Below are positions 1,402-12,179 of a stretch of 64,000 nt of DNA, in pieces. The first letter of the stretch is position 1; each line of letters begins with the position of its first letter. Source of the stretch: a virus (Duplodnaviria > Caudoviricetes); IMG/VR virus record IMGVR_UViG_3300027736_000043, positions 1,903 to 65,902 of that record; one strand, written 5' to 3'. A model generated the notes under the pieces. It was not told the origin of the DNA and ran no database searches. It saw only the letters and a list, made by a program, of their open reading frames with translations. The translations under genes were made by a program, and so were the position numbers.

Positions 1402-4400
1402 TTATGCTGTTGCTTGATAGGTTTTTTGTTGCCAATCCACACCAGTTTTTTGTACTCTGATCAACTCTTGGATTGCTGCCAGCAGCATTTCATTGGTATT
1501 ATTTTGATTAGATAATCCGTCTTTGAGATCTTTAAAGCTGTTTTCAAAACTGTTTGCTGCACCTGGTTGATATTTCTTTTCAATATCTGTTTTGGTAGCC
1601 ATAGTTTCAGCCAGCATTCTGGCCACATCTGCAGAGTTATCTAACTTGATATTCATGCCTTTGCTGTTGATTGTGGCCACATCTGAATCAATTGTTAGAT
1701 CTGACGCTCCTGAACTATTTTTATTATTTGGGCCTAGTGCAGCCATTTGATCAGCTTGCAATGCTGCTGCATCATTCATACGGCGGTCATTGGGCGCTAC
1801 TGATTCATTTGAGTTTTTGTTTGTTTTATTTTTTTGTTCACGATCAAGTTTGACTTGATTGTTGATGGCATCAAACAGTTGTGTCTGAGTGTTTATATCG
1901 TTTTTAAGTTGTTTTTCCCATTCTACTTTTCCCCGAACATCGTCGGACGTTTGGCCCATTGCAGGCAATTTTCCTATGCTTTCTAATAGATGGTTTATTG
2001 CAGTTTTTTGTTCTTGAATCAGATTTTCATACGATACTTTGCTGCCTACTAGGACTTCTGGCTGCAGATTATTAATTTTGACTTTTTTCTGGTCAGCAGT
2101 TAATTGGTTTTCGGCTTCAACTCTATCTTTGAGCGTTTTTTCTAATTCTTTTTCTGCTAGAACTTGGTTATTACGTGCTGCAACTAAGTTTTCATTTGCA
2201 TCTGTCAATTCTTTTAAACTGCCAGTTGCTTCAGTCAGCGAAGCCAACTGCTTTTCAGCAGCAGTTACAACTAATTTTGCTTTGTTAATTTTTTGTATTG
2301 CATCATTGTCGTTGACAGTTTCTTGTTTGTTACGTGATGCAATTAATTTTTCATTGGCACTTGTTACGTCTTTAAGACTACCAGTTGTTTCAGTTAACGA
2401 TGCAAGTTGTTTTTCGGCAGCGGTTACAATCAACTTTTGTATAGCAGTGATATCACCAATATTTGCTTGTTCATTGAATGAAGTGGTTAAGTTTTTATTA
2501 GCGCCAGTTAAATCTGCCCAGCTGCCAGTTGTTTCAGTTAACGATGCAAGTTGTTTTTCAGCAGCATTTACAACCAACTTTTGTATGGCAGTAATATCAC
2601 CAATATTTGCTTGTTCATTGAATGAAGTGGTTAAATTTTTATTGGCACCGGTTACGTCTTTCTGACTAGCAGTTGATTCGTTCATTGTTGCCAATTGCTT
2701 TTTGGCAGCATTTACAACCAACTTTTGTATAGCAGTTATATCACCAATATTTGCTTGTTCATTGAATGAAGTGGTTAAATTTTTATTGGCACCAGTTAAA
2801 TCTGCCCAGCTACTTGATGATTCTCTTAGAGAAGCCAATTGTTTTTCAATAGCAGTTACAACCAACTTTTGTATGGCAGTGATATCACCAATATTTGCTT
2901 GTTCTTTACGTGCTTCAATTAAATTTTTATCTGCACCTGTTAGTTCTTTCAAATTGCCAGTTGATTCTTTTAAAGAAGCCAATTGTTTTTCAATAGCAGT
3001 TACAACCAACTTTTGTATGGCAGCAGCGTCGCTGATATTTGCTTGTTCTTTACGTGCTTCAACTAATTTTTTATTTGCATCTGTTACGTCTTTTTGACTA
3101 GCAGTTGTTTCGTTCATTGTTGCCAATTGCTTTTCGGCAGCAGTTACAACTAACTTTTGTATGGCAGCAGCATCGTCAATTTTTGCTTGTTCTTTACGTG
3201 CTTCAACTAATTTTTTATTTGCATCTGTTATGTCTTTCTGACTAGCAGTTGATTCGTTCATTGTTGCCAATTGCTTTTCGGCAGCAGTTGTTAACTGTTG
3301 TATGGCAGTATTGTCGTTGATGTTTGCTTGTTTATTGAATGATGTAGTTAAATTTTCATTTGCACCAGTTAAATCTGCCCAACTGCCGTTTGTGTCGTTT
3401 AACAAGTCCAATTGCTGTTTAGCTGCGGTTACAGTTAATTTTTGTACTGCGGTAGTGTTATCATCAATTTTTGCCTGTTCATCATGTGCTGCAATTAATT
3501 TGTTAGTTGTGTCTGTTAGTTCTTGCCAATTACCATTTACGTCGTTTAAAGAATCAAGTTGTTTTTTAGCAGCAGTTGCAGTTGATTTTTGTATTGCAGC
3601 GTCATCGGCAAATTTTTCTCCTTTGCCAGGTTCAAACGCCATACTGAGTTTTTTATCTGCATCTTTTGTGCCAAATTTAGCCTGAAATTCTTTTAGCCAA
3701 TCGTAATACTCGTTTTTAACAGATGGTTTAAGTTTAGCTGTTTCGGGTTTGACTTCGGTAGACTTGTCTTTGTCAGGATCGTTTTTAAGAGCTGCTATCT
3801 GATCAGCACTTAAATTTGCTGTTTCTGGTTTGGCTGATTCAGCAGCAGGAGCAACAGGTTTGTTGCCACGAGCTTTTTTTAATTTTGTTTCAGCATCAAT
3901 TTTGGCATCAAGAGCTGTTTTAGCAGCATCAGTGGCAATTTTTTCTTCTTTACGTGCTTCAGTTAATTTTTTATTTGTTTCTATTAGATCTTTTTCTGCA
4001 CCGTTGGTCAGGTTCAACTCTGCAAATTGTTTTTCAGCATCTGACACTGCTGATTTTTTCTCTTCAAGACGTTTTTTTGCATTGTCGTATGCATCTGATG
4101 CTCGTTTCTGATCTTTTTCAAGTGAAATAATTTTTGCTGTTTTTTCAGCAGTTGTTGGTTCATTCACTGGTGCTGGTTGTGATTCAGGCTTGGGTGCAGG
4201 CTTGGGTGCCAAATTTGGATCATTTTTAGGCAAGTAGATGCCTTTTTCTGCTGCAAAAGGAACCAACAGACTTTTAGCCAGATTTGCAAGGTCTTGTGAT
4301 TGTTCTACTTGTCCTTTCACACCAGCAACATTCGTACCAAGTAATTTGCCATCTATTCTTTGCAATGTCTGTTGCAACAAGGTCATGATGTCTTGATTGT

Positions 4401-5748
4401 CTTTGATCAATGCTGCATACGATGCTAGCAACGGATCAGTGGGTTTTGCACCTGGTGGACCTTTGCCTGTTTTGTCTCGTTCTAAAAGAACTTGTTTGAA
4501 CTCATCCAGTGCTTTTCTGTCAGTGTACTGTTGTGCCAGTTGAGCTTCTTTGAAAGGTATTAAGAATTTTTCTCCTTCGCCAGTTTGATACGACATGTTG
4601 AATTTTTTGGCTGTTTCGCCAGCAGCTCCTAATGTGCTGTATGCACCTTCTATTCCTTTTTTAGCACCCGAAGTAACATCACGAATGTCTGTTAAAATTT
4701 GACCTTGTGTACTTGTGTTGGCTTTTTGTGCTGCTTCTGTATTCATCATTCCGGTTGTTAAATCACGGAATCCTTGTGCCAACGCCGGAGATACCTTTGC
4801 CAATGCTATATTTTGTTGTTCAAGTTGTTCAGCAGCCGCAATTTGTTGGGCATCACCACTGGCTTTCATAGCAGCTATTTTGGCACCAAATCTTTGTTCG
4901 CTCAGTGCTGCTTCTCTTATGGATTGTTGTTCTTTTCGACTTACTCCTAATAGTTTAGTCAATGCATCTTGTTCGTAGAGATATTTTCGTGTTCCGTCGA
5001 TCAATTCATCTGTGGACATTTTTTGAGATCTACCAGAAAGATTTTGCAATCTGATGTAACCCATCATGCCTTCGTTTATCTCGTCTTGAGTCATTCCCAG
5101 AGCAAACAATTTTTCTCTTTCACCTTCAAGTGCCTGAGATAGATTATCAAATTTGCGTCGACCATCAAACGCACTTTTACCAAACATTGCCAATTCTTGA
5201 CTGTTGCTGTTGACCAAGTTGATGTAGTTGCCTAATTTGCTGATGCTCAACCCGGTCTTGGCTGCACTGTTTGCAACCCCAGACATGCCTTCGCTGGCAA
5301 TGGTACCACTGCCGCTTAGTTTATTGTATGTTTCATATTCTTGTTGTGCCTGTAGGTTGGATTTTTTTGCTAAATCAGTTAATGCGCCAACAGCCGTGAC
5401 CGCCGCCGCTCCCAACGCTTTTACTCCAAGCCCGCCAGGAATCAACAGGGCCAGTGTCTCTATAAATTTACCAACTGCTCCACCTACTTGGCCTATCGAA
5501 TTGTTAAAAGATTCTACGCCCAGCTGTCCTTCGTACACAGCACCAGCGAATGATCCTACTGATCTGGCCAAAGTTTGCAAACTTTGGCCTGCACCTTGGG
5601 CAGCTTGTTTAAGTAGATAATCTGATTCTGTTCTTTGCCGCGTTGCTGAAGAAGCACCAGCAGTCAAATTAGCATAGCGGTCAAATTCACCGTTGAGTCT
5701 GCTCAACTGCGCCGATATTGCATTTACTTCGTCATTTAAGTCAGCCAT
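1402..5748 (-). CDS. Probable tail tape-measure protein (1448 aa) with an internal repeat array
   Basis: Long Ala/Gly/Lys/Gln-rich helical protein with an N-terminal hydrophobic Gly/Ala stretch. Divergent from a tail chaperone-like pair. The call rests on composition and context. Confidence 0.6.
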   Translation of the reverse strand: MADLNDEVNAISAQLSRLNGEFDRYANLTAGASSATRQRTESDYLLKQAAQGAGQSLQTLARSVGSFAGAVYEGQLGVESFNNSIGQVGGAVGKFIETLALLIPGGLGVKALGAAAVTAVGALTDLAKKSNLQAQQEYETYNKLSGSGTIASEGMSGVANSAAKTGLSISKLGNYINLVNSNSQELAMFGKSAFDGRRKFDNLSQALEGEREKLFALGMTQDEINEGMMGYIRLQNLSGRSQKMSTDELIDGTRKYLYEQDALTKLLGVSRKEQQSIREAALSEQRFGAKIAAMKASGDAQQIAAAEQLEQQNIALAKVSPALAQGFRDLTTGMMNTEAAQKANTSTQGQILTDIRDVTSGAKKGIEGAYSTLGAAGETAKKFNMSYQTGEGEKFLIPFKEAQLAQQYTDRKALDEFKQVLLERDKTGKGPPGAKPTDPLLASYAALIKDNQDIMTLLQQTLQRIDGKLLGTNVAGVKGQVEQSQDLANLAKSLLVPFAAEKGIYLPKNDPNLAPKPAPKPESQPAPVNEPTTAEKTAKIISLEKDQKRASDAYDNAKKRLEEKKSAVSDAEKQFAELNLTNGAEKDLIETNKKLTEARKEEKIATDAAKTALDAKIDAETKLKKARGNKPVAPAAESAKPETANLSADQIAALKNDPDKDKSTEVKPETAKLKPSVKNEYYDWLKEFQAKFGTKDADKKLSMAFEPGKGEKFADDAAIQKSTATAAKKQLDSLNDVNGNWQELTDTTNKLIAAHDEQAKIDDNTTAVQKLTVTAAKQQLDLLNDTNGSWADLTGANENLTTSFNKQANINDNTAIQQLTTAAEKQLATMNESTASQKDITDANKKLVEARKEQAKIDDAAAIQKLVVTAAEKQLATMNETTASQKDVTDANKKLVEARKEQANISDAAAIQKLVVTAIEKQLASLKESTGNLKELTGADKNLIEARKEQANIGDITAIQKLVVTAIEKQLASLRESSSSWADLTGANKNLTTSFNEQANIGDITAIQKLVVNAAKKQLATMNESTASQKDVTGANKNLTTSFNEQANIGDITAIQKLVVNAAEKQLASLTETTGSWADLTGANKNLTTSFNEQANIGDITAIQKLIVTAAEKQLASLTETTGSLKDVTSANEKLIASRNKQETVNDNDAIQKINKAKLVVTAAEKQLASLTEATGSLKELTDANENLVAARNNQVLAEKELEKTLKDRVEAENQLTADQKKVKINNLQPEVLVGSKVSYENLIQEQKTAINHLLESIGKLPAMGQTSDDVRGKVEWEKQLKNDINTQTQLFDAINNQVKLDREQKNKTNKNSNESVAPNDRRMNDAAALQADQMAALGPNNKNSSGASDLTIDSDVATINSKGMNIKLDNSADVARMLAETMATKTDIEKKYQPGAANSFENSFKDLKDGLSNQNNTNEMLLAAIQELIRVQKTGVDWQQKTYQATA
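2165..3606 (-). repeat. About 10 tandem degenerate 144-bp (48-aa) repeats inside the tape-measure gene
   Basis: atttgcttgttcattgaatgaag recurs at 2461, 2605 and 2749 (period 144). The unit is QANIGDITAIQKLVVxAAEKQLASLxExxxSWADLTGANKNLTTSFNE, with ten AIQK/AVQK/AIQQ cores. Confidence 0.92.
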
Positions 5749-7347: not shown

Positions 7348-7787
7348 CTTATCAATTTGCAAGAATTGATCTTAGCAAGACCAATTATGAACCCGCTGTA
7401 GAGTGGCAGTACATCACAAGTCGAGAACCCGATGTGTTGGCCAAGTTAGATGCTATCTACAAAACTTATTGCACTTACAAACATTTTTCTAGTGTAATGC
7501 CCATGTTCCATTCTAGATACTGTGACCCAATGGCTGACTTGATTGGATATTATGATTCCAAAAAGCTGGTAGCATGGAGCCTGATACGTAAATTTGATCC
7601 GCACAATGCATTGTGCGACCAATTTGCATGGACTTATCACAAGCCAAAACTACGCATGGGAATAGAAACATTGAAAACAGAGTGTGCTATCTACAAACAG
7701 CAAGGATTCCAATACTTGTATCTAGAGCAAGCACACTTGTACAAGTCAGAAATAGACGGATTTGAAATATTAGGACCACTGGAGTAA
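7344..7787 (+). CDS. Aminoacyl(Arg/Leu)-tRNA-protein transferase C-terminal-like (ATE/Bpt, GNAT-fold) protein
   Basis: GYYDSKKLVAWS...FAWTYHKPKLRMGIETLKTECAIYKQQGFQYLYL...YK resembles the ATE_C pattern (Y-dg-kLvav...YDP....lslG..s.l.Ei..a...g..yyYLG....YK). Confidence 0.6.
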   Translation: MTYQFARIDLSKTNYEPAVEWQYITSREPDVLAKLDAIYKTYCTYKHFSSVMPMFHSRYCDPMADLIGYYDSKKLVAWSLIRKFDPHNALCDQFAWTYHKPKLRMGIETLKTECAIYKQQGFQYLYLEQAHLYKSEIDGFEILGPLE

Positions 7788-7790
7788 CAC

Positions 7791-8132
7791 ATGGATTTAT
7801 ATACAATTTGGGCAGACAAACAAGGCGATATCTCAGATCTTGAATGGGTCAACGGAATGAAAAGTTTTTTTGATCATTTGGTCAATGAAGACCGTATGGT
7901 CACGTATCGTATTACCCGATGCAAGATGGGCTTCCGAAGTATAGCAGACATGCCTGAGTGGATGATTATCATGGAGTTTCGTGACATGGGACAAATGGAC
8001 TCAGCATTCAAACGAGTAGCACCACTCAAAGGTGAGCTCGAAGATAAACATCGCAGCTTTAATCAGTTTGTGTCAGGCAATATACAACATGCATTGTTTA
8101 GAGATTGGCCAGATAATAACTTGGATGATTAA
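7791..8132 (+). CDS. Hypothetical protein, DUF6614-like (dimeric alpha/beta barrel-like)
   Basis: YTIWAD...YRITRCKMGF...PEWMIIMEF.D..Q.D.AF..V pattern. GGAG RBS upstream. Confidence 0.5.
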   Translation: MDLYTIWADKQGDISDLEWVNGMKSFFDHLVNEDRMVTYRITRCKMGFRSIADMPEWMIIMEFRDMGQMDSAFKRVAPLKGELEDKHRSFNQFVSGNIQHALFRDWPDNNLDD

Positions 8133-8580
8133 AAGACTTGCTACGCAAGTCTATTGATTTCGCTATCGCTCATCAATGTTGTTAAGAAGTTTTCATGTAG
8201 ATTGTTTTAGTCAGACGGAACCGTTTTGCACGGTTCCATCTTTTGTCCTCATGTGAGTTGTCACAGCCAAGACATTGGAAATAGGTGTTTTTACCGTGAT
8301 GCTAATGGGCTCTGATCTTTCCCTACCTACATCGACTCGCTGGCAACAGCGTCTTAGACCTCGTTCCTAGTGTCTAAGTTTTTATAGCACGGTTTTTCGT
8401 ATGCTAACATTCATACTATATCAATGCGTTGGGCGTATGGTTCTACCCTCAGACTCACTTCCGATTTTTCAGGATAGTCAGATCTACTGACGGGAGTGCA
8501 TCAATATGTCACGTGTCCGGTTATTCCCCGGTTTTTCCACAGCGGTATTACAAACTGGCCCGCCAACCTTAGGTGTTAGA
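8133..8580 (-). ncRNA. Candidate large structured non-coding RNA (~450 nt)
   Basis: No ORF of 60 aa or more in this gap between convergent genes. At least 8 stems, e.g. 8134-8152, 8214-8240, 8338-8351, and a long-range pair 8418-8427 with 8498-8507. Imperfect pairs are G-U on the minus strand but A-C on the plus strand. Confidence 0.6.
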
Positions 8581-8850
8581 TTAAAATGCTTCTCTTGGAA
8601 GCCACTTAAGAAATTTATTTTTACAAGTGATACAGATAAGTTTGCCTGCGTGTGGTCCTGACTGTAATTGGATACGATCTAATTTGTGATTTACATGGAT
8701 GCCTAAAAACTGCTTTTCTTTGTCTGACTGTTCTTGTTTATGTTTTTGCTGTTCGTGCCAGTTCTTGTCAAACCCTTCTTTTGGATTTGTCCAGTACTCG
8801 GAGTTCATGGTACTAGTCCAATTTTGTCGATTCCAAACAAGTTTGGTCAT
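8581..8850 (-). CDS. Hypothetical protein with a C-terminal zinc-ribbon-like motif
   Basis: H..KLICITCKNKFLKWL (PH-x-CxxC-x-KWL). ATGA overlap with the GIY-YIG gene. Confidence 0.6.
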   Translation of the reverse strand: MTKLVWNRQNWTSTMNSEYWTNPKEGFDKNWHEQQKHKQEQSDKEKQFLGIHVNHKLDRIQLQSGPHAGKLICITCKNKFLKWLPREAF

Positions 8851-9275
8851 ATTCGATTTAGAATTTGGCGGCCATGTACTCTTACCTGTATATGACCGTT
8901 GTAATAATCTTGTGATTCCAATACTCGCCTACTGAATTGCTCTCGTGCCTCAATGTATGAGCATTCACTCTTGCTTGCACAGTAGTAGAGTATCTCTCTG
9001 GTAAAATTGATAGTGCCTAGTTGTTCAATGTCTGCGGATAGTTCTGCGCTGGACCCATAATATTGTTGCCAATCAGAATCAATCTTGCTTTGTATCCGTT
9101 TTTTCTTTTTGATGCCGTTCTTTTGTTTGATTACTCGATAAGTTGTTTTTGAGAACTTTGCCAGTTTTTTGCCTATGTATTTGCGTCCAGATAGATTATT
9201 TGTGATCAAATAAACAAATCCCACACATGTTTCGGGCAATGTCTCCACTGGGGTGTTTTGATATAGCCATGTCAT
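8847..9275 (-). CDS. GIY-YIG endonuclease (stand-alone catalytic domain; DenA/Seg-like)
   Basis: GFVYLITNNLSGRKYIGKK...WQQYYGSS...FTREIL...E...YYNG motifs. Confidence 0.88.
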   Translation of the reverse strand: MTWLYQNTPVETLPETCVGFVYLITNNLSGRKYIGKKLAKFSKTTYRVIKQKNGIKKKKRIQSKIDSDWQQYYGSSAELSADIEQLGTINFTREILYYCASKSECSYIEAREQFSRRVLESQDYYNGHIQVRVHGRQILNRI

Positions 9276-9342
9276 GTTGCAGTTTTGTTAATTGTGTCAT
9301 ATAGTTATGCTGCCTGTGGTGATTGTTGTAAAAATCTTGTGA

Positions 9343-10206
9343 TTATTGTAGTTGTGTTTCTCGTCGCCATTGGTTATTAAAATTGGTTCTTAGATCATGT
9401 GTTCCACAAGCTGTTTGGCAGATTGTGTTGGGGGTTAAAGTTTTCCAAGTCACTTTTACTTGCTGTATATCTTCTATCACATTAAATTGTGATCCACCAA
9501 TCCAACAACACGGACTCAATCGTCCTTGTGCATCTATATAAGCACTTTTTTCAGACAGCACATGACACCGTATAGCACCCACACCTGATATAGGTGGTTG
9601 CCAGTTTAGTGGTGACTGTAAAGTATTGGTAAATCCACGATTTGAAACTTTTGCACGGAACCAAGAGAAGCCCATGGCTCGAGCCAAAGATTCGCATTCT
9701 TCTACTTGATGTTGATTGTGTCGATACACCAACATGTCCCAATGTGCTGATCCTCCAGCAGAAATATAAGCATCAGCGTTGGCCATAAGTTTTGACCAAT
9801 CAACTCCGCGCCGATATGTAGTGTTGGTATCTTCCAATCCGTCAATGCTGAACACAACATAATCGAGTGGCTGGTTAAATATCTTTCCTAATTCATGCCA
9901 CCAAAATGTGTTCTGTATAGCACCATTGGTATTCATACCCAATGTGATGTCTGGGTTAAGATGACGCAACCATTGATAGATATCCAAAGTGTTTTTAGCA
10001 GCAGCAGGATCACCGTAAGTACCACACATGAATGCTTTGTCAAGACCGGATATTACACGATCACTGAAATGTTTCTGTATTTGTGGAACTGTGAGATGGT
10101 GTTGTTGTTTTTTATTAAACAAAGGATCAGTTTCTCTGGCACACAATGGACATGCGGCTTGGCATACATCCGTGGGCTCTAAATGCAATACTTTTATTCT
10201 ACGCAA
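9343..10206 (-). CDS. Radical SAM protein with a C-terminal twitch/SPASM-like Cys cluster
   Basis: CQAACPLC (CxxxCxxC), GTYGDP, NTNG, FSIDG; C-terminal C...G.LSPCC...C...C. TTG start. Confidence 0.88.
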   Translation of the reverse strand: MRRIKVLHLEPTDVCQAACPLCARETDPLFNKKQQHHLTVPQIQKHFSDRVISGLDKAFMCGTYGDPAAAKNTLDIYQWLRHLNPDITLGMNTNGAIQNTFWWHELGKIFNQPLDYVVFSIDGLEDTNTTYRRGVDWSKLMANADAYISAGGSAHWDMLVYRHNQHQVEECESLARAMGFSWFRAKVSNRGFTNTLQSPLNWQPPISGVGAIRCHVLSEKSAYIDAQGRLSPCCWIGGSQFNVIEDIQQVKVTWKTLTPNTICQTACGTHDLRTNFNNQWRRETQLQ

Positions 10207-10255
10207 TTTCTACATCCGACTATTTTCTCTAAACTCAACAAAATATAGTATTTTT

Positions 10256-10690
10256 TCATGTGTGCTGGATTTCTATATTGTGTATCAAATTTTTATTACG
10301 CAAATGATAAAAAATTGGAGTTATAAAATTATAACAAAAGACTCCGTTTTTGTGCAAAAAACCATAAGTGTTTTCAACAGTATTGTTTTGAGTAGTGTAA
10401 ATTCCATACTGCTTACAATTGTTACTGATGTCAATCTCGTCAACAGTCAATGTATCTATAATAACAGATAGATCTTCAATTATTTTACCATCTTTGTCAA
10501 TCTTAGTGTCTAATTCAGACTTGTTTAAAAATATCACTTCCAAAGTGTTTGCTCCAAATGTTGGATATCCATTAAATTGGTTTTTTTCATTAGCTAACTC
10601 AATTTGGTTTAATCGTACATAAAATTCTGGATTTTTGTCAGTCAAACACATTACTTTAATTTTGAGACATAGAGAATATTTTTTTTGCAT
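10256..10690 (-). CDS. Hypothetical protein (AT-rich), partner of the B12-radical SAM gene
   Basis: 144-aa ORF overlapping the end of the upstream gene. No recognised motif. Confidence 0.6.
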   Translation of the reverse strand: MQKKYSLCLKIKVMCLTDKNPEFYVRLNQIELANEKNQFNGYPTFGANTLEVIFLNKSELDTKIDKDGKIIEDLSVIIDTLTVDEIDISNNCKQYGIYTTQNNTVENTYGFLHKNGVFCYNFITPIFYHLRNKNLIHNIEIQHT

Positions 10691-12179
10691 TGTGATTTTT
10701 ATACCATTCTAATTGTGTTTTTACTAACCAAATTTTTTGATTCAAATTATCAGTATCCTCACTGGTCATTTGAAGAGATTTTGCTAACTCACACAGTTCA
10801 ATAAATCGATTGACCCGAACATCAAACGTATTTTTGGTATTAGACTTGCTAACCCACGAAAACTCAGTATACCCTTCAATATTAACTGTGTTGATCCCTA
10901 GATCTTTATACATCTGAGTATTGACCATTGGTGTATTCTGAAGCATTAAAAAAGTTCCTATAGGATCTATTTTTAATAAACCGTTACTTCTTGGGTGCCA
11001 ATATTTTATTAAGTCAATAGTTTTTTGCCAGTCTTGATCAGTCTCTGTTGGATAGCCAGCAATTATATTCCAATTTTGTTCAATACCGTATTTGATCAAC
11101 ATACCAGTTGTATAATCTATATCTTGATCAGTGCTGCCCTTGCCCATGTGATTACGTACAGATTCACTGCCACTCTCAAGACCAATTGAAACATTAGCAC
11201 AGCCAGCATCATACATAGACTTGAAATATCGTTCAGGCATATCTTTTTTGCTTCGAACAATAAATTGCCCTTCGTAGTTAATAACTCGAGGCAAATCACT
11301 AGCCAGTATTTGATTCATTTCGTAAAATGGTTTCAACCCACCGTTCATTAGACTATCTGTAAACGAAAAAAATGTTACAGAATGTCTACGATAAAGTTCA
11401 ATAATTTCTTTTGCCACAGTAGATCCACTTCGAAATCTATACCGACCCCATATTTTTCCTACGTCACAAAACGAGCAGTCTCGAACACAGCCTCTGCTGG
11501 CAGTTATTGAAAATGTCAGTCCAGCTGCTTGTGTTTTATCAGTCCTCCAATAACTTCGTTTGTTTTTAGGATACAAGTCAAAGTTATAATCTGAGTAGTC
11601 TGGAATAGGTAACTGTTCTAGCATTTCGTTGCTCAACTGTGGTTCAATTATCAAACCAGACAAATTGTTCTTTATAATTTTTGCCAAAGCATAATCGCCT
11701 TCGCCGAGTAACACACAGTCAGCTAATCCTGAATCCAACATCAAATCGTGCCATTTTTTTCCGTATTCAAATTGAATAATGTCAATGCCGTTGCCGCCAA
11801 TGATGATTTTTATTTTATCAACAGATTTTAATCTAACAGTATAACATAGATCTTCAGTAAATCTCTGACTGTTTTGAGTCAAGCAACTGATAGCTAAACA
11901 AGTTGGAAAAATTTCAATAATCTTTGTTGCATAACTATCTATCAATTTTGAATACCAATCAAATGCCTCAACAGAGACTTTTAACTCTGGCTGTTGCATC
12001 CATGCAGTAATTTCTGAATAGTATTTGTTAGATTGATTTTCAAAATTAAACTCAGCTGATAGATCCCATGCTTGTGCAGATATCTGTTGTTGGCTAACGC
12101 ATGATTTGAGCAATGCCGGTGCCATAGATGGGCCAAGCGTATATGTAAATGGTGCAGTTACTATTAGAACATCTATCAT
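10656..12179 (-). CDS. Cobalamin(B12)-binding-domain radical SAM protein
   Basis: N-terminal P.MAPALLKS...IIIGG...GEGD...LPIPDY, then ASRGCVRDCSFC, GLESGSE and IAGYPTET, which is the class B architecture. Confidence 0.88.
   Translation of the reverse strand: MIDVLIVTAPFTYTLGPSMAPALLKSCVSQQQISAQAWDLSAEFNFENQSNKYYSEITAWMQQPELKVSVEAFDWYSKLIDSYATKIIEIFPTCLAISCLTQNSQRFTEDLCYTVRLKSVDKIKIIIGGNGIDIIQFEYGKKWHDLMLDSGLADCVLLGEGDYALAKIIKNNLSGLIIEPQLSNEMLEQLPIPDYSDYNFDLYPKNKRSYWRTDKTQAAGLTFSITASRGCVRDCSFCDVGKIWGRYRFRSGSTVAKEIIELYRRHSVTFFSFTDSLMNGGLKPFYEMNQILASDLPRVINYEGQFIVRSKKDMPERYFKSMYDAGCANVSIGLESGSESVRNHMGKGSTDQDIDYTTGMLIKYGIEQNWNIIAGYPTETDQDWQKTIDLIKYWHPRSNGLLKIDPIGTFLMLQNTPMVNTQMYKDLGINTVNIEGYTEFSWVSKSNTKNTFDVRVNRFIELCELAKSLQMTSEDTDNLNQKIWLVKTQLEWYKNHNAKKIFSMSQN

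What the first reader, a model, noticed from the sequence alone, without database searches (positions are those of the whole stretch)
8133..8580. Unannotated ~450-nt multi-stem RNA-like element downstream of a GIY-YIG nuclease unit
Seen: this is the only long ORF-free stretch in a gene-dense window, and it is packed with stems. On the minus strand these include GAUGGAACCGU-GCAAA-ACGGUUCCGUC (8214-8240), CGCUG/CAGCG (8338-8351), CUUAGAC/GUCUAAG and GUCAG/CUGAC. There are nested long-range pairs AUAUUGAUGC (8498-8507) with GCAUUGAUAU (8418-8427) and AUGUAGGU with AUCUACAU, and a terminal perfect hairpin (8134-8152). Several imperfect pairs are G-U on the minus strand but A-C on the plus strand, and linkers are A-rich on the minus strand, which argues for an RNA rather than DNA cruciforms. 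Inference: a large phage ncRNA co-transcribed with the GIY-YIG (8847-9275) and zinc-ribbon (8581-8850) genes. It could be a scaffold or guide RNA for them, a ribozyme, or a relative of large phage RNAs such as GOLLD/ROOL. I do not recognise it as tRNA, tmRNA or RNase P.
Basis: partly seen in the sequence, partly recalled or inferred. Interest (0 to 1): 0.82.

Follow-up and report, generated by a model that had tools for sequence, protein, structure and literature searches.

The report
Large phage RNA with twin repeats
This is a real folded non-coding RNA gene of about 450 bases that is common in aquatic phages and related to a little-studied bacterial RNA motif; what it does is still unknown.

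Summary
Window 8133-8580 is the longest ORF-free stretch. Its minus strand folds far better than shuffles (z -5.1; plus strand -1.4), and 17 homologues keep 96 pairs, 22 of them through compensatory changes. No Rfam family, tRNA or tmRNA matches.

It is not a private oddity. Sister jumbo phages carry one of three RNA types (A, as here; B; C) in this slot. Type C and copies in Polynucleobacter islands begin with the Rfam motif Polynucleobacter-1 (RF01718). All types share an undescribed 3' module: two direct repeats flanking a hairpin, then a GA hairpin and a terminator. The 7-base core of the repeats differs between lineages yet stays the same in both copies, and I found no complement inside the RNA.

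Type A is frequent in viral and metagenome contigs. It usually lies just behind a SegE-like GIY-YIG gene, but 12 of 59 metagenome loci lack that gene, and GIY homologues occur in cultured phages with no room for the RNA.

Best reading: an autonomous trans-acting RNA that displays twin seed sequences. That it is a real RNA of this family is about 0.9; the mechanism is about 0.3. A guide-RNA role for the nuclease is neither excluded nor favoured. It is a new variant of a known but uncharacterised kind.

The parts
8133..8580 (-). ncRNA gene (type A of an extended Polynucleobacter-1-like family); the conserved core runs about 8191-8579
   Evidence: z -5.06; 96 pairs, 22 compensatory; core conserved in 34 distant viral homologues
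8541..8564 (-). 5' hairpin H1 with an invariant GCCAG-containing loop
   Evidence: helix 2; 49-51 of 51 paired in the wide alignment
8535..8539 (-). UGGAA, 5' strand of a long-range helix with UUCCA at 8276-8280; it closes the central domain
   Evidence: 48-51 of 51 paired but invariant, so there is no covariation test
8407..8516 (-). 5' domain closed by a long helix (8498-8516 with 8407-8427); it holds the ACUAUCC..GGA submotif (8460-8478) that also occurs in RF01718
   Evidence: 4 of its pairs show several standard pair types in 51 sequences; RF01718 consensus printed
8247..8258 (-). first repeat block, ACUC + 8-mer (REP1), single-stranded in the consensus fold
8214..8240 (-). hairpin H between the two repeats
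   Evidence: helix 16; 51 of 51 paired
8191..8202 (-). second repeat block, AUCU + 8-mer (REP2), single-stranded, just 3' of the helix that joins the 5' and 3' ends (8565-8568 with 8209-8212)
8153..8177 (-). GA hairpin (stem, GA/GAA internal loop, 2 bp, GAUA loop), kept in all types and in the bacterial copies
   Evidence: helices 17-18, 5 of 8 pairs covary; the same hairpin is seen in bacterial and marine copies
8134..8152 (-). terminal hairpin followed by a U run on the minus strand; probably a bidirectional terminator shared with the convergent gene
   Evidence: read directly; the scan lists it on the + strand only
8581..8850 (-). 89-aa ORF with conserved HxxH...H...CxxC; present in only some relatives
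   Evidence: tblastn; 8 of 8 aligned homologues keep the His and Cys residues; no Pfam hit over the cut-off
8847..9275 (-). 142-aa SegE-like GIY-YIG protein (PHROG 447), nuclease domain only
   Evidence: Pfam 7.6e-32; PHROG 2.1e-36
7791..8132 (+). convergent DUF6614 gene that ends at the foot of the terminal hairpin
   Evidence: Pfam 6e-21

Best explanation
Shown: 8133-8580 (minus strand) is a gene for a structured ncRNA of about 450 nt. It is the 'type A' branch of a family that also includes type B and type C RNAs at the same locus in sister jumbo phages, and free-standing copies in mobile islands of Polynucleobacter. In type C and the bacterial copies the first 140 nt are the Rfam motif Polynucleobacter-1. 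All branches share a 3' module: repeat 1, hairpin H, repeat 2, GA hairpin, terminator.

Inferred: the RNA is read through from the upstream GIY-YIG and 89-aa genes and stopped at its own terminator. It then acts in trans as an RNA. The conserved multi-helix body is a scaffold that holds out two identical single-stranded 7-base 'seeds' (in 8247-8258 and 8191-8202). These pair with two copies of a matching sequence in another nucleic acid that belongs to the element itself. Because the seed differs between close relatives, it would set element-specific recognition, as in the antisense immunity and incompatibility RNAs of phages and plasmids (a comparison from recall). The neighbouring nuclease genes are most simply homing-type genes parked beside a conserved RNA gene.
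For: It is a real RNA.

Family:
- Among 81 relatives that hold both flanking genes, the 387-3695 nt between them is type A in 23, B in 47 and C in 11 (the type A count is the remainder). In the 15 loci printed, the only frames of 40 aa or more were short and inconsistent between relatives.
- RF01718 scores 112-119 bits in 5 of 5 type C loci and does not match 3 of 3 type B loci.
- A profile built only from B, C and bacterial 3' modules finds one place in the 64-kb window, 8190-8269 on the minus strand, E 0.0038.

Autonomy:
- The bacterial copies have no GIY-YIG gene upstream and lie divergent to a DUF6641 gene in 11 of 12 loci.
- RF01718 is over its cut-off in 13 of 121 sampled genomes of the genus, so it is accessory there.
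- 12 of 59 metagenome loci carry the RNA in other phage contexts that lack the GIY gene.

Twin seeds:
- In alignment A2, with positions fixed by invariant ACUC and AUCU columns, positions 1-7 agree between the two repeats in 31-34 of 34 sequences, although 5 of those positions vary and there are 14 different 7-mers.
- Identity within a sequence is 7.2 of 8, against 4.9 of 8 between sequences; 0 of 10000 permutations reach the observed total.
- Within type B, the column that best covaries with repeat-1 position 1 is repeat-2 position 1 (MI 0.64, equal to its entropy; the next column is 0.34).
- No segment inside the RNAs is consistently complementary to the seed: among 21 representatives only scattered single sites appeared, at no shared position.

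A weak hint of expression: RNA-library contigs X7 (8411-8561) and X8 (8247-8397) are identical to the element.
Against: No partner sequence was found:
- There is no consistent complement within 1.5 kb in the bacterial loci.
- There is nothing in the window beyond the gene's own opposite strand.
- In two near-complete sister genomes, sites complementary to the seed plus its flank are at control level: 3 extra sites against 5 control hits, and 2 extra against 1. The pairing in the two extra sites I read does not extend past 11 bases.

Transcription, RNA ends and strand are not shown, because contigs cannot show them. The sequences are related to one another, so the permutation figures overstate independence. 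The tight placement behind a nuclease gene (46 of 49 and 47 of 59 loci) is not explained by a purely autonomous RNA. The homology of the type A 5' domain with RF01718 rests on my own reading of shared blocks; the Rfam model itself does not score it.
Confidence: 0.35

Rival explanations
1. The RNA is the targeting or scaffold subunit of the DNA enzyme encoded beside it (GIY-YIG here). The twin seeds read a DNA site for an enzyme that has only a catalytic domain.
For: The RNA starts 0-13 nt after the upstream stop codon in the loci read. A GIY142 homologue of only about 50% identity ends less than 700 nt upstream in 47 of 59 metagenome loci, and one lies upstream on the same strand in 46 of 49 non-truncated viral loci, although the outer flanks differ. 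In L276 the GIY gene is replaced at the same spot by a PDDEXK_15 endonuclease (1.6e-27). In bacteria, a tyrosine recombinase of about 190 aa that matches only the catalytic half of the Xer models follows the RNA in 7 of 12 loci.
Against: 12 of 59 loci have the RNA without a GIY142 homologue or the L276 PDDEXK; their other neighbours were not run against family libraries. GIY142 homologues occur in 499 GenBank phage records, and the 4 I opened have coding genes directly downstream. GIY142 identity does not follow RNA type: type B loci L003 and L083 are 90% and 95% identical to the window's protein, while type A locus L115 is 74%. A 7-base guide is very short.
Confidence: 0.12
2. The adjacency comes from selfish genes. 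The nuclease genes are free-standing homing endonucleases that target, or hitch-hike with, a conserved RNA gene. Types A, B and C are exchangeable alleles shuffled by cut-and-repair. (This explains the neighbourhood, not what the RNA does.)
For: The Pfam family is that of the T4 Seg homing endonucleases. Two unrelated nuclease folds occupy the same slot. Among genomes whose flanking proteins are 86-96% identical, the RNA type changes while only the last 45-50 nt stay alike. Extra 1-3 kb insertions occur in the same gap.
Against: GIY142 is present in almost every relative rather than sporadically. No cleavage site is known.
Confidence: 0.3
3. It is a cis-acting 3' untranslated element of the GIY-YIG operon (stabiliser, processing signal or regulator), or simply the terminator region of two convergent genes.
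For: Its position directly behind the ORFs, the terminal hairpin shared with the convergent gene, and the listing of RF01718 as a possible cis-regulator in the table of PMC2864571 (passage seen).
Against: About 400 nt of conserved multi-helix structure is far more than a terminator needs. The same RNA stands alone between other genes. The GIY gene exists without it.
Confidence: 0.08
4. The repeats act at the DNA level. They are two sites for a recombinase or another DNA-binding protein, or a replication origin, and the RNA fold is secondary.
For: They are direct repeats of up to about 24 nt that flank an inverted repeat, and a tyrosine recombinase gene lies next to 7 of 12 bacterial copies.
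Against: The fold is strongly strand-specific. There are 22 compensatory pairs spread over the whole 400 nt. The phages have no recombinase beside the RNA. The repeats are only about 55 bp apart.
Confidence: 0.07
5. It is a self-splicing intron or another known ribozyme.
For: A GIY-YIG gene next to a structured RNA recalls phage group I introns (from recall).
Against: No intron or ribozyme model matches, even at E up to 10. The element lies between a stop codon and a convergent gene, so there are no exons. It is present or replaced as a whole cassette, with no host gene involved.
Confidence: 0.03

Closest known systems
Polynucleobacter-1 RNA motif (Rfam RF01718; listed in a table of Weinberg et al. 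2010, PMC2864571)
   Same: Type C RNAs in the same slot of sister phages, and the bacterial copies, start with it (86-119 bits). The window's RNA shares the 3' module and, by my reading, the H1 hairpin loop, the GGAA stretch and the ACUAUCC..GGA submotif.
   Different: The Rfam model covers only 141 nt and does not score the window. The full RNAs are 390-490 nt (gap lengths). Type A lacks the second hairpin of the motif and has extra ones. The 3' module and its twin repeats are not part of the Rfam model. I saw no description of them in the one paper that my search for the motif name returned.
GOLLD and ROOL (large ornate RNAs linked with phages, function unknown)
   Same: Large, highly structured, phage-borne, no known function (abstract of PMC12286853 seen in the listing).
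   Different: No Rfam match; smaller; different neighbours; no evidence here for multimers.
Antisense immunity RNAs of phages P4 and P1/P7 and plasmid copy-number RNAs (from recall)
   Same: Short exposed specificity sequences that differ between close relatives; in P4 and P1, directly repeated target sequences flank the RNA.
   Different: In those systems the complement lies in the same transcript. Here no complement was found, and the RNA is several times larger.
Free-standing homing endonucleases next to their target genes in T4-like phages (Seg and Mob proteins; 'collaborative homing' with group I introns; from recall)
   Same: A SegE-like GIY-YIG gene lies directly beside a conserved structured-RNA gene, with cassette-like exchange.
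   Different: The RNA is not an intron and the nuclease gene is nearly always present.
Guide RNAs of mobile-element nucleases and recombinases (omega RNA of TnpB and IscB, bridge RNA of IS110; from recall and the listing)
   Same: A structured RNA is encoded next to a DNA enzyme of a mobile element, with two short specificity segments.
   Different: Different enzyme families; the two segments are identical rather than different; the RNA also occurs without the enzyme.

Membership tests
Rfam RF01718 Polynucleobacter-1 | Covariance-model score of at least 37 bits | tested here: not met
   No hit in the window at gathering score, nor at E up to 10 in 7700-9500
Extended Polynucleobacter-1-like family (defined here) | 3' module: ACUC-seed, hairpin, AUCU with the same seed | tested here: met
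   A profile built without any type A sequence gives one hit in 64 kb, at 8190-8269 (-), E 0.0038; seeds at 8247-8258 and 8191-8202
Extended Polynucleobacter-1-like family (defined here) | Same genomic slot as RF01718-bearing RNAs in sister genomes | tested here: met
   Between the GIY142 and DUF6614 genes in 81 loci
Extended Polynucleobacter-1-like family (defined here) | Homologous 5' domain | tested here: inconclusive
   Shared blocks by eye only; no model support
Group I / group II introns | Match to an intron model, and insertion within a host gene with exons | tested here: not met
   No model match; flanked by a stop codon and a convergent gene
GOLLD, ROOL, HEARO, OLE, raiA and other large Rfam RNAs | Rfam model match | tested here: not met
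   also no such match in 14 + 3 related loci
tRNA, tmRNA, RNase P RNA | ARAGORN or Rfam detection | tested here: not met
Guide RNA of an adjacent nuclease | Obligate co-occurrence of RNA and enzyme | tested here: not met
   12 of 59 loci have the RNA without the GIY gene; 4 of 4 cultured phages opened have the GIY gene but no room for the RNA
Guide RNA of an adjacent nuclease | Physical RNA-protein complex and RNA-dependent cutting | not testable with these tools
   Needs biochemistry
Type III toxin-antitoxin RNA | Tandem full-length repeats upstream of a ToxN-like endoribonuclease | tested here: not met
   Only two partial repeats, and they lie downstream of a GIY-YIG gene
SegE-like GIY-YIG endonuclease (the neighbouring gene) | Pfam PF19835 over its cut-off | tested here: met
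   110.6 bits against a cut-off of 25

The most novel reading that the evidence does not exclude
The RNA is the DNA-recognition subunit for minimal DNA-cutting or DNA-joining enzymes that carry only a catalytic domain: GIY-YIG or PDDEXK in phages, and a short tyrosine recombinase in Polynucleobacter islands. Its two identical 7-base seeds sit on opposite ends of a short helix and would read the two arms of a two-fold symmetric DNA site. That would make it an RNA-guided homing or recombination system built on enzyme families not known to use guides.
Probability: 0.08. Interest if true: 0.95.

Novelty: new variant of a known kind. Interest (0 to 1): 0.62.

Why it matters
A 15-year-old orphan Rfam motif turns out to be the front third of a much larger RNA. 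Large, well-folded RNAs of unknown function are rare, and several have proved to be new kinds of machine. This one adds an unusual signature: two exposed sequences that change in step as identical copies, which points to a testable recognition mechanism. The bacterial copy in a named Polynucleobacter rarus strain (the record behind L175) gives a practical way into experiments. The RNA's size and rigid-looking fold also make it a good cryo-EM target.

Tried and rejected
GenBank phages:
- blastn with the window RNA, the 8-kb surroundings and a marine homologue found nothing. No record of that collection matched at that sensitivity.

Own record:
- No DUF6641 and no reverse transcriptase in the 66 kb held, which is 19% of a genome. 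A template-jumping reading of the repeats therefore has no enzyme in view.

Search for a partner of the seeds:
- No complement recurs at a shared position inside the RNAs; among 21 representatives only scattered single sites appeared.
- No covarying column other than the other repeat, including 110 nt downstream.
- No consistent site in the bacterial loci or in the window.
- P. rarus genome: the only exact copies of the repeat are the two in the gene; one-mismatch sites are 11 against 11 control hits.
- Two near-complete sister genomes: control level, and the two extra sites I read do not extend.

Other ideas read and dropped:
- A P4-like scheme in which the loop of hairpin H is complementary to the seeds. 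I checked this by eye on the bacterial copies and it does not covary.
- GIY142 as an orthologue of a solved GIY-YIG enzyme: the PDB sequence search gave only E 0.95.

RNA libraries:
- Contigs cannot show strand, ends or level. Parts of the stretch without cover mean nothing.
- Joints in X1 that skip 8160-8850 or 7779-8132 are variants of relatives, not splicing.

Model:
- R1 has no base pairs, because RNAalifold found none on A2. It is a sequence profile only.

Papers:
- Searches for the motif name (1 paper), DUF6641 (0 papers), Polynucleobacter RNA motifs, GOLLD/ROOL, RNA-guided tyrosine recombinases, and GIY-YIG with structured RNA turned up no description of this RNA in the listings and passages I saw.
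- I saw only listings and passages. Supplements were not opened and may hold the 2010 alignment and its gene context.

Full report
THE OBSERVATION. Window 8133-8580 is the longest stretch of the 64-kb window with no ORF of 75 aa or more (448 nt; the next is 214 nt). It lies between the stop codon of an 89-aa ORF on the minus strand and the stop codon of a convergent DUF6614 gene. Folded as RNA, the minus strand gives -132.9 kcal/mol, z -5.06, and 0 of 100 shuffles do as well. The plus strand gives z -1.42, with 11 of 100 as good. Rfam finds nothing at gathering score in the whole window and only chance-level rows at E up to 10 around the element. ARAGORN finds no tRNA or tmRNA.

HOMOLOGUES AND STRUCTURE. 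The window is a fragment (CheckV 19%) of a viral record. Searching viral contigs with the two flanking proteins gave 159 loci. blastn of the element against these and the window's own locus found 24 loci with a full-length match at 80-100% identity, which reduce to 17 distinct sequences including the window's own. On their alignment (A1) RNAalifold predicts 96 pairs, 22 of them kept through changes on both sides. Counting gives 98.8% of cells paired, against 29-41% with slid partners. There are 22 double-change pairs against 0-4 slid, and 0 of 500 shuffles reach the observed values. In a wider alignment that adds 34 distant viral homologues, the main helices stay paired in 46-51 of 51 sequences and several show three or four standard pair types.

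THE SLOT ALWAYS HOLDS AN RNA. 81 relatives contain both the GIY-YIG gene ('GIY142') and the DUF6614 gene. The gap between them is never shorter than 387 nt. In the 15 loci I printed, it held only short frames that were inconsistent between relatives. Marker motifs sort these gaps into type B (47) and type C (11), and the remaining 23 are type A. Rfam recognises the first 140 nt of type C as Polynucleobacter-1, RF01718 (5 of 5 type C loci, 112-119 bits). It recognises neither type B (0 of 3) nor type A. In the one paper that my search for the motif name returned, the motif appears only as a table row: a possible cis-regulator, found in Burkholderiales and in fresh water.

BACTERIAL COPIES. One pattern scan of genome contigs gave 27 stretches. 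Rfam confirmed RF01718 in 7 of the 15 that I scanned. One of these is in a named strain, Polynucleobacter rarus MT-CBb6A5 (L175). There the motif is followed by about 330 more nucleotides with the same 3' layout as the phage RNAs. Across 121 sampled genomes of that genus, 13 have the motif over its cut-off and 4 of those have two copies. The RNA is therefore accessory in that genus. In 11 of 12 loci a DUF6641 gene lies divergently upstream. In 7 of 12 a tyrosine recombinase of about 190 aa follows on the same strand. The loci reach only 1.5 kb to each side.

THE SHARED 3' MODULE AND ITS TWIN REPEATS. Every type ends in the same order of parts. First comes a stretch ending in ACUC plus an 8-mer. 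Then come a linker, a stable hairpin H, and a stretch ending in AUCU plus nearly the same 8-mer. A spacer follows, then a hairpin with a GA/GAA internal loop, and last a terminator hairpin. In alignment A2 (34 sequences of types B, C and bacterial) the ACUC and AUCU columns are invariant. Positions 1-7 after them agree between the two repeats in 31-34 of 34 sequences, although five of those positions vary and there are 14 different 7-mers. Identity within a sequence is 7.2 of 8, against 4.9 of 8 between sequences, and 0 of 10000 permutations reach the observed total. Relatedness inflates that figure. Within type B alone, the best covarying partner of repeat-1 position 1 is repeat-2 position 1. 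This is covariation of identity, not of complement. No consistently placed complementary segment exists inside the RNAs. A profile built from A2, which holds no type A sequence, finds a single place in the window, 8190-8269 on the minus strand, E 0.0038. That ties type A to the family by a test rather than by eye.

TYPE A IS WIDESPREAD. 66 of those rows pass a filter for matching repeats. In many of the viral loci the neighbours form clusters that I read, from recall, as the T4 recombination-nuclease genes 47 and 46, followed by a 69-aa ORF, a GIY142 homologue of about 50% identity, the RNA, and a gene like the window's T4_baseplate gene. None of the 14 + 3 loci scanned matches any Rfam family other than RF01718, which matches the type-C-like ones only.

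RELATION TO THE NUCLEASE GENE. For a link:
- A GIY142 homologue lies upstream on the same strand in 46 of 49 non-truncated viral loci.
- One ends less than 700 nt upstream in 47 of 59 metagenome loci that have enough upstream sequence.
- In L276 a PDDEXK_15 endonuclease takes its place.

Against an obligate link:
- 12 of 59 metagenome loci, plus L247 and L252, carry the RNA among other genes. L252's neighbours are a class II aldolase, Bax1-I, cytochrome c and serine hydroxymethyltransferase by Pfam. By my own reading of the printed ORFs, other loci hold ClpP-, QueC/QueD- and terminase-like genes.
- GIY142 homologues (PHROG 447, often labelled 'NAD synthetase') occur in 499 GenBank phage records. 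In the 4 I opened, coding genes follow directly.
- GIY142 identity does not follow RNA type.

The simplest reading is that homing-type nuclease genes sit beside a conserved RNA gene and help to shuffle it. A ribonucleoprotein is not excluded.

EXPRESSION. Four runs were laid on 7700-9400. Three are metatranscriptomes on record, from three different studies. Each holds contigs inside the element: X7 8411-8561 and X8 8247-8397 with no differences, and X9 8403-8522 with one. The tool warns that contigs in an RNA library do not prove transcription and cannot give strand or ends. No sigma-70-like promoter lies in front of the RNA. A terminator-like hairpin lies at 8588-8602 on the minus strand, inside the end of the 89-aa ORF.

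WHAT IT MOST LIKELY IS AND DOES. Shown: a conserved, strand-specific, multi-helix RNA of a family that spans phages and bacterial mobile islands, with two exposed identical short sequences. Inferred: it acts in trans, and the twin sequences are recognition seeds for a partner encoded by the element itself, because they differ between close relatives yet never between the two copies. I could not find the partner. For that reason the mechanism stands at about 0.3, while the identity of the RNA stands at about 0.9.

NOVELTY. Known: the 141-nt Rfam motif. New here: its full length, the 3' module with twin repeats, the type A and B branches that Rfam misses, their abundance in phages, and the recurrent nuclease and recombinase neighbours. 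I file it as a new variant of a known but uncharacterised kind.

Noticed in passing
L276:5250-5765: At the exact slot where other phages have the GIY-YIG gene, this contig has a PDDEXK_15 endonuclease directly upstream of the RNA. This is a replacement by a non-homologous nuclease.
   Followed up: partly
L163, L162, L174, L323-L331 (bacterial loci): A recurrent cassette in Polynucleobacter-genus genomes: a DUF6641 gene, then the RNA transcribed divergently, then a tyrosine recombinase of about 190 aa that matches only the catalytic half of the Xer models.
   Followed up: partly
window 8178-8190 (A1 columns 412-431): The window's copy lacks a spacer of about 20 nt (CGCUUCGCUCUUG...) that 15 of the other 16 type A homologues have between repeat 2 and the GA hairpin (L099 has a different stretch there). 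By eye, that spacer is complementary to the top of the GA hairpin, so it may allow an alternative fold.
   Followed up: no
window 8847-9275 and GenBank hits H5-H29: The GIY-YIG family (PHROG 447; 'T4-LIKE GC: 213' in the P-HM1 record) is widely labelled 'NAD synthetase' in phage records. Pfam places it in SegE_GIY-YIG, so the label looks like an annotation error that has spread.
   Followed up: partly
window 8581-8850: The 89-aa ORF keeps HxxH...H...CxxC in 8 of 8 homologues but is present in only some relatives. It overlaps the GIY gene's stop codon (ATGA) and could be a detached DNA-binding domain.
   Followed up: partly
window 8588-8602 (-): A terminator-like hairpin with a U run lies inside the last codons of the 89-aa ORF, just before the conserved start of the RNA.
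   Followed up: no
window 9343-12179: Two radical SAM genes (287 and 507 aa) flank a 144-aa ORF. Relatives carry two or three tandem radical SAM paralogues here. G+C drops to 27-30% in 10200-10800.
   Followed up: no
window 1402-5748 (-): A 1448-aa protein with many near-identical internal repeats of about 30-35 aa (AIQKL..TAAEKQLA...). It is probably a tape-measure-like structural protein.
   Followed up: no
L222, L252, L253, L255, L261, L297: Short variants of the type A RNA: only about 230 nt precede repeat 1. In L222 and L252, whose sequences I read, the 5' hairpin H1 is missing while the central domain and the 3' module are kept. These mark a possible minimal core.
   Followed up: partly
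L002, L066, L070, L094 and others: Insertions of 1-3 kb lie in the gap between the RNA and the DUF6614 gene (gaps of up to 3695 nt), so the gap is a hot spot for extra DNA.
   Followed up: no
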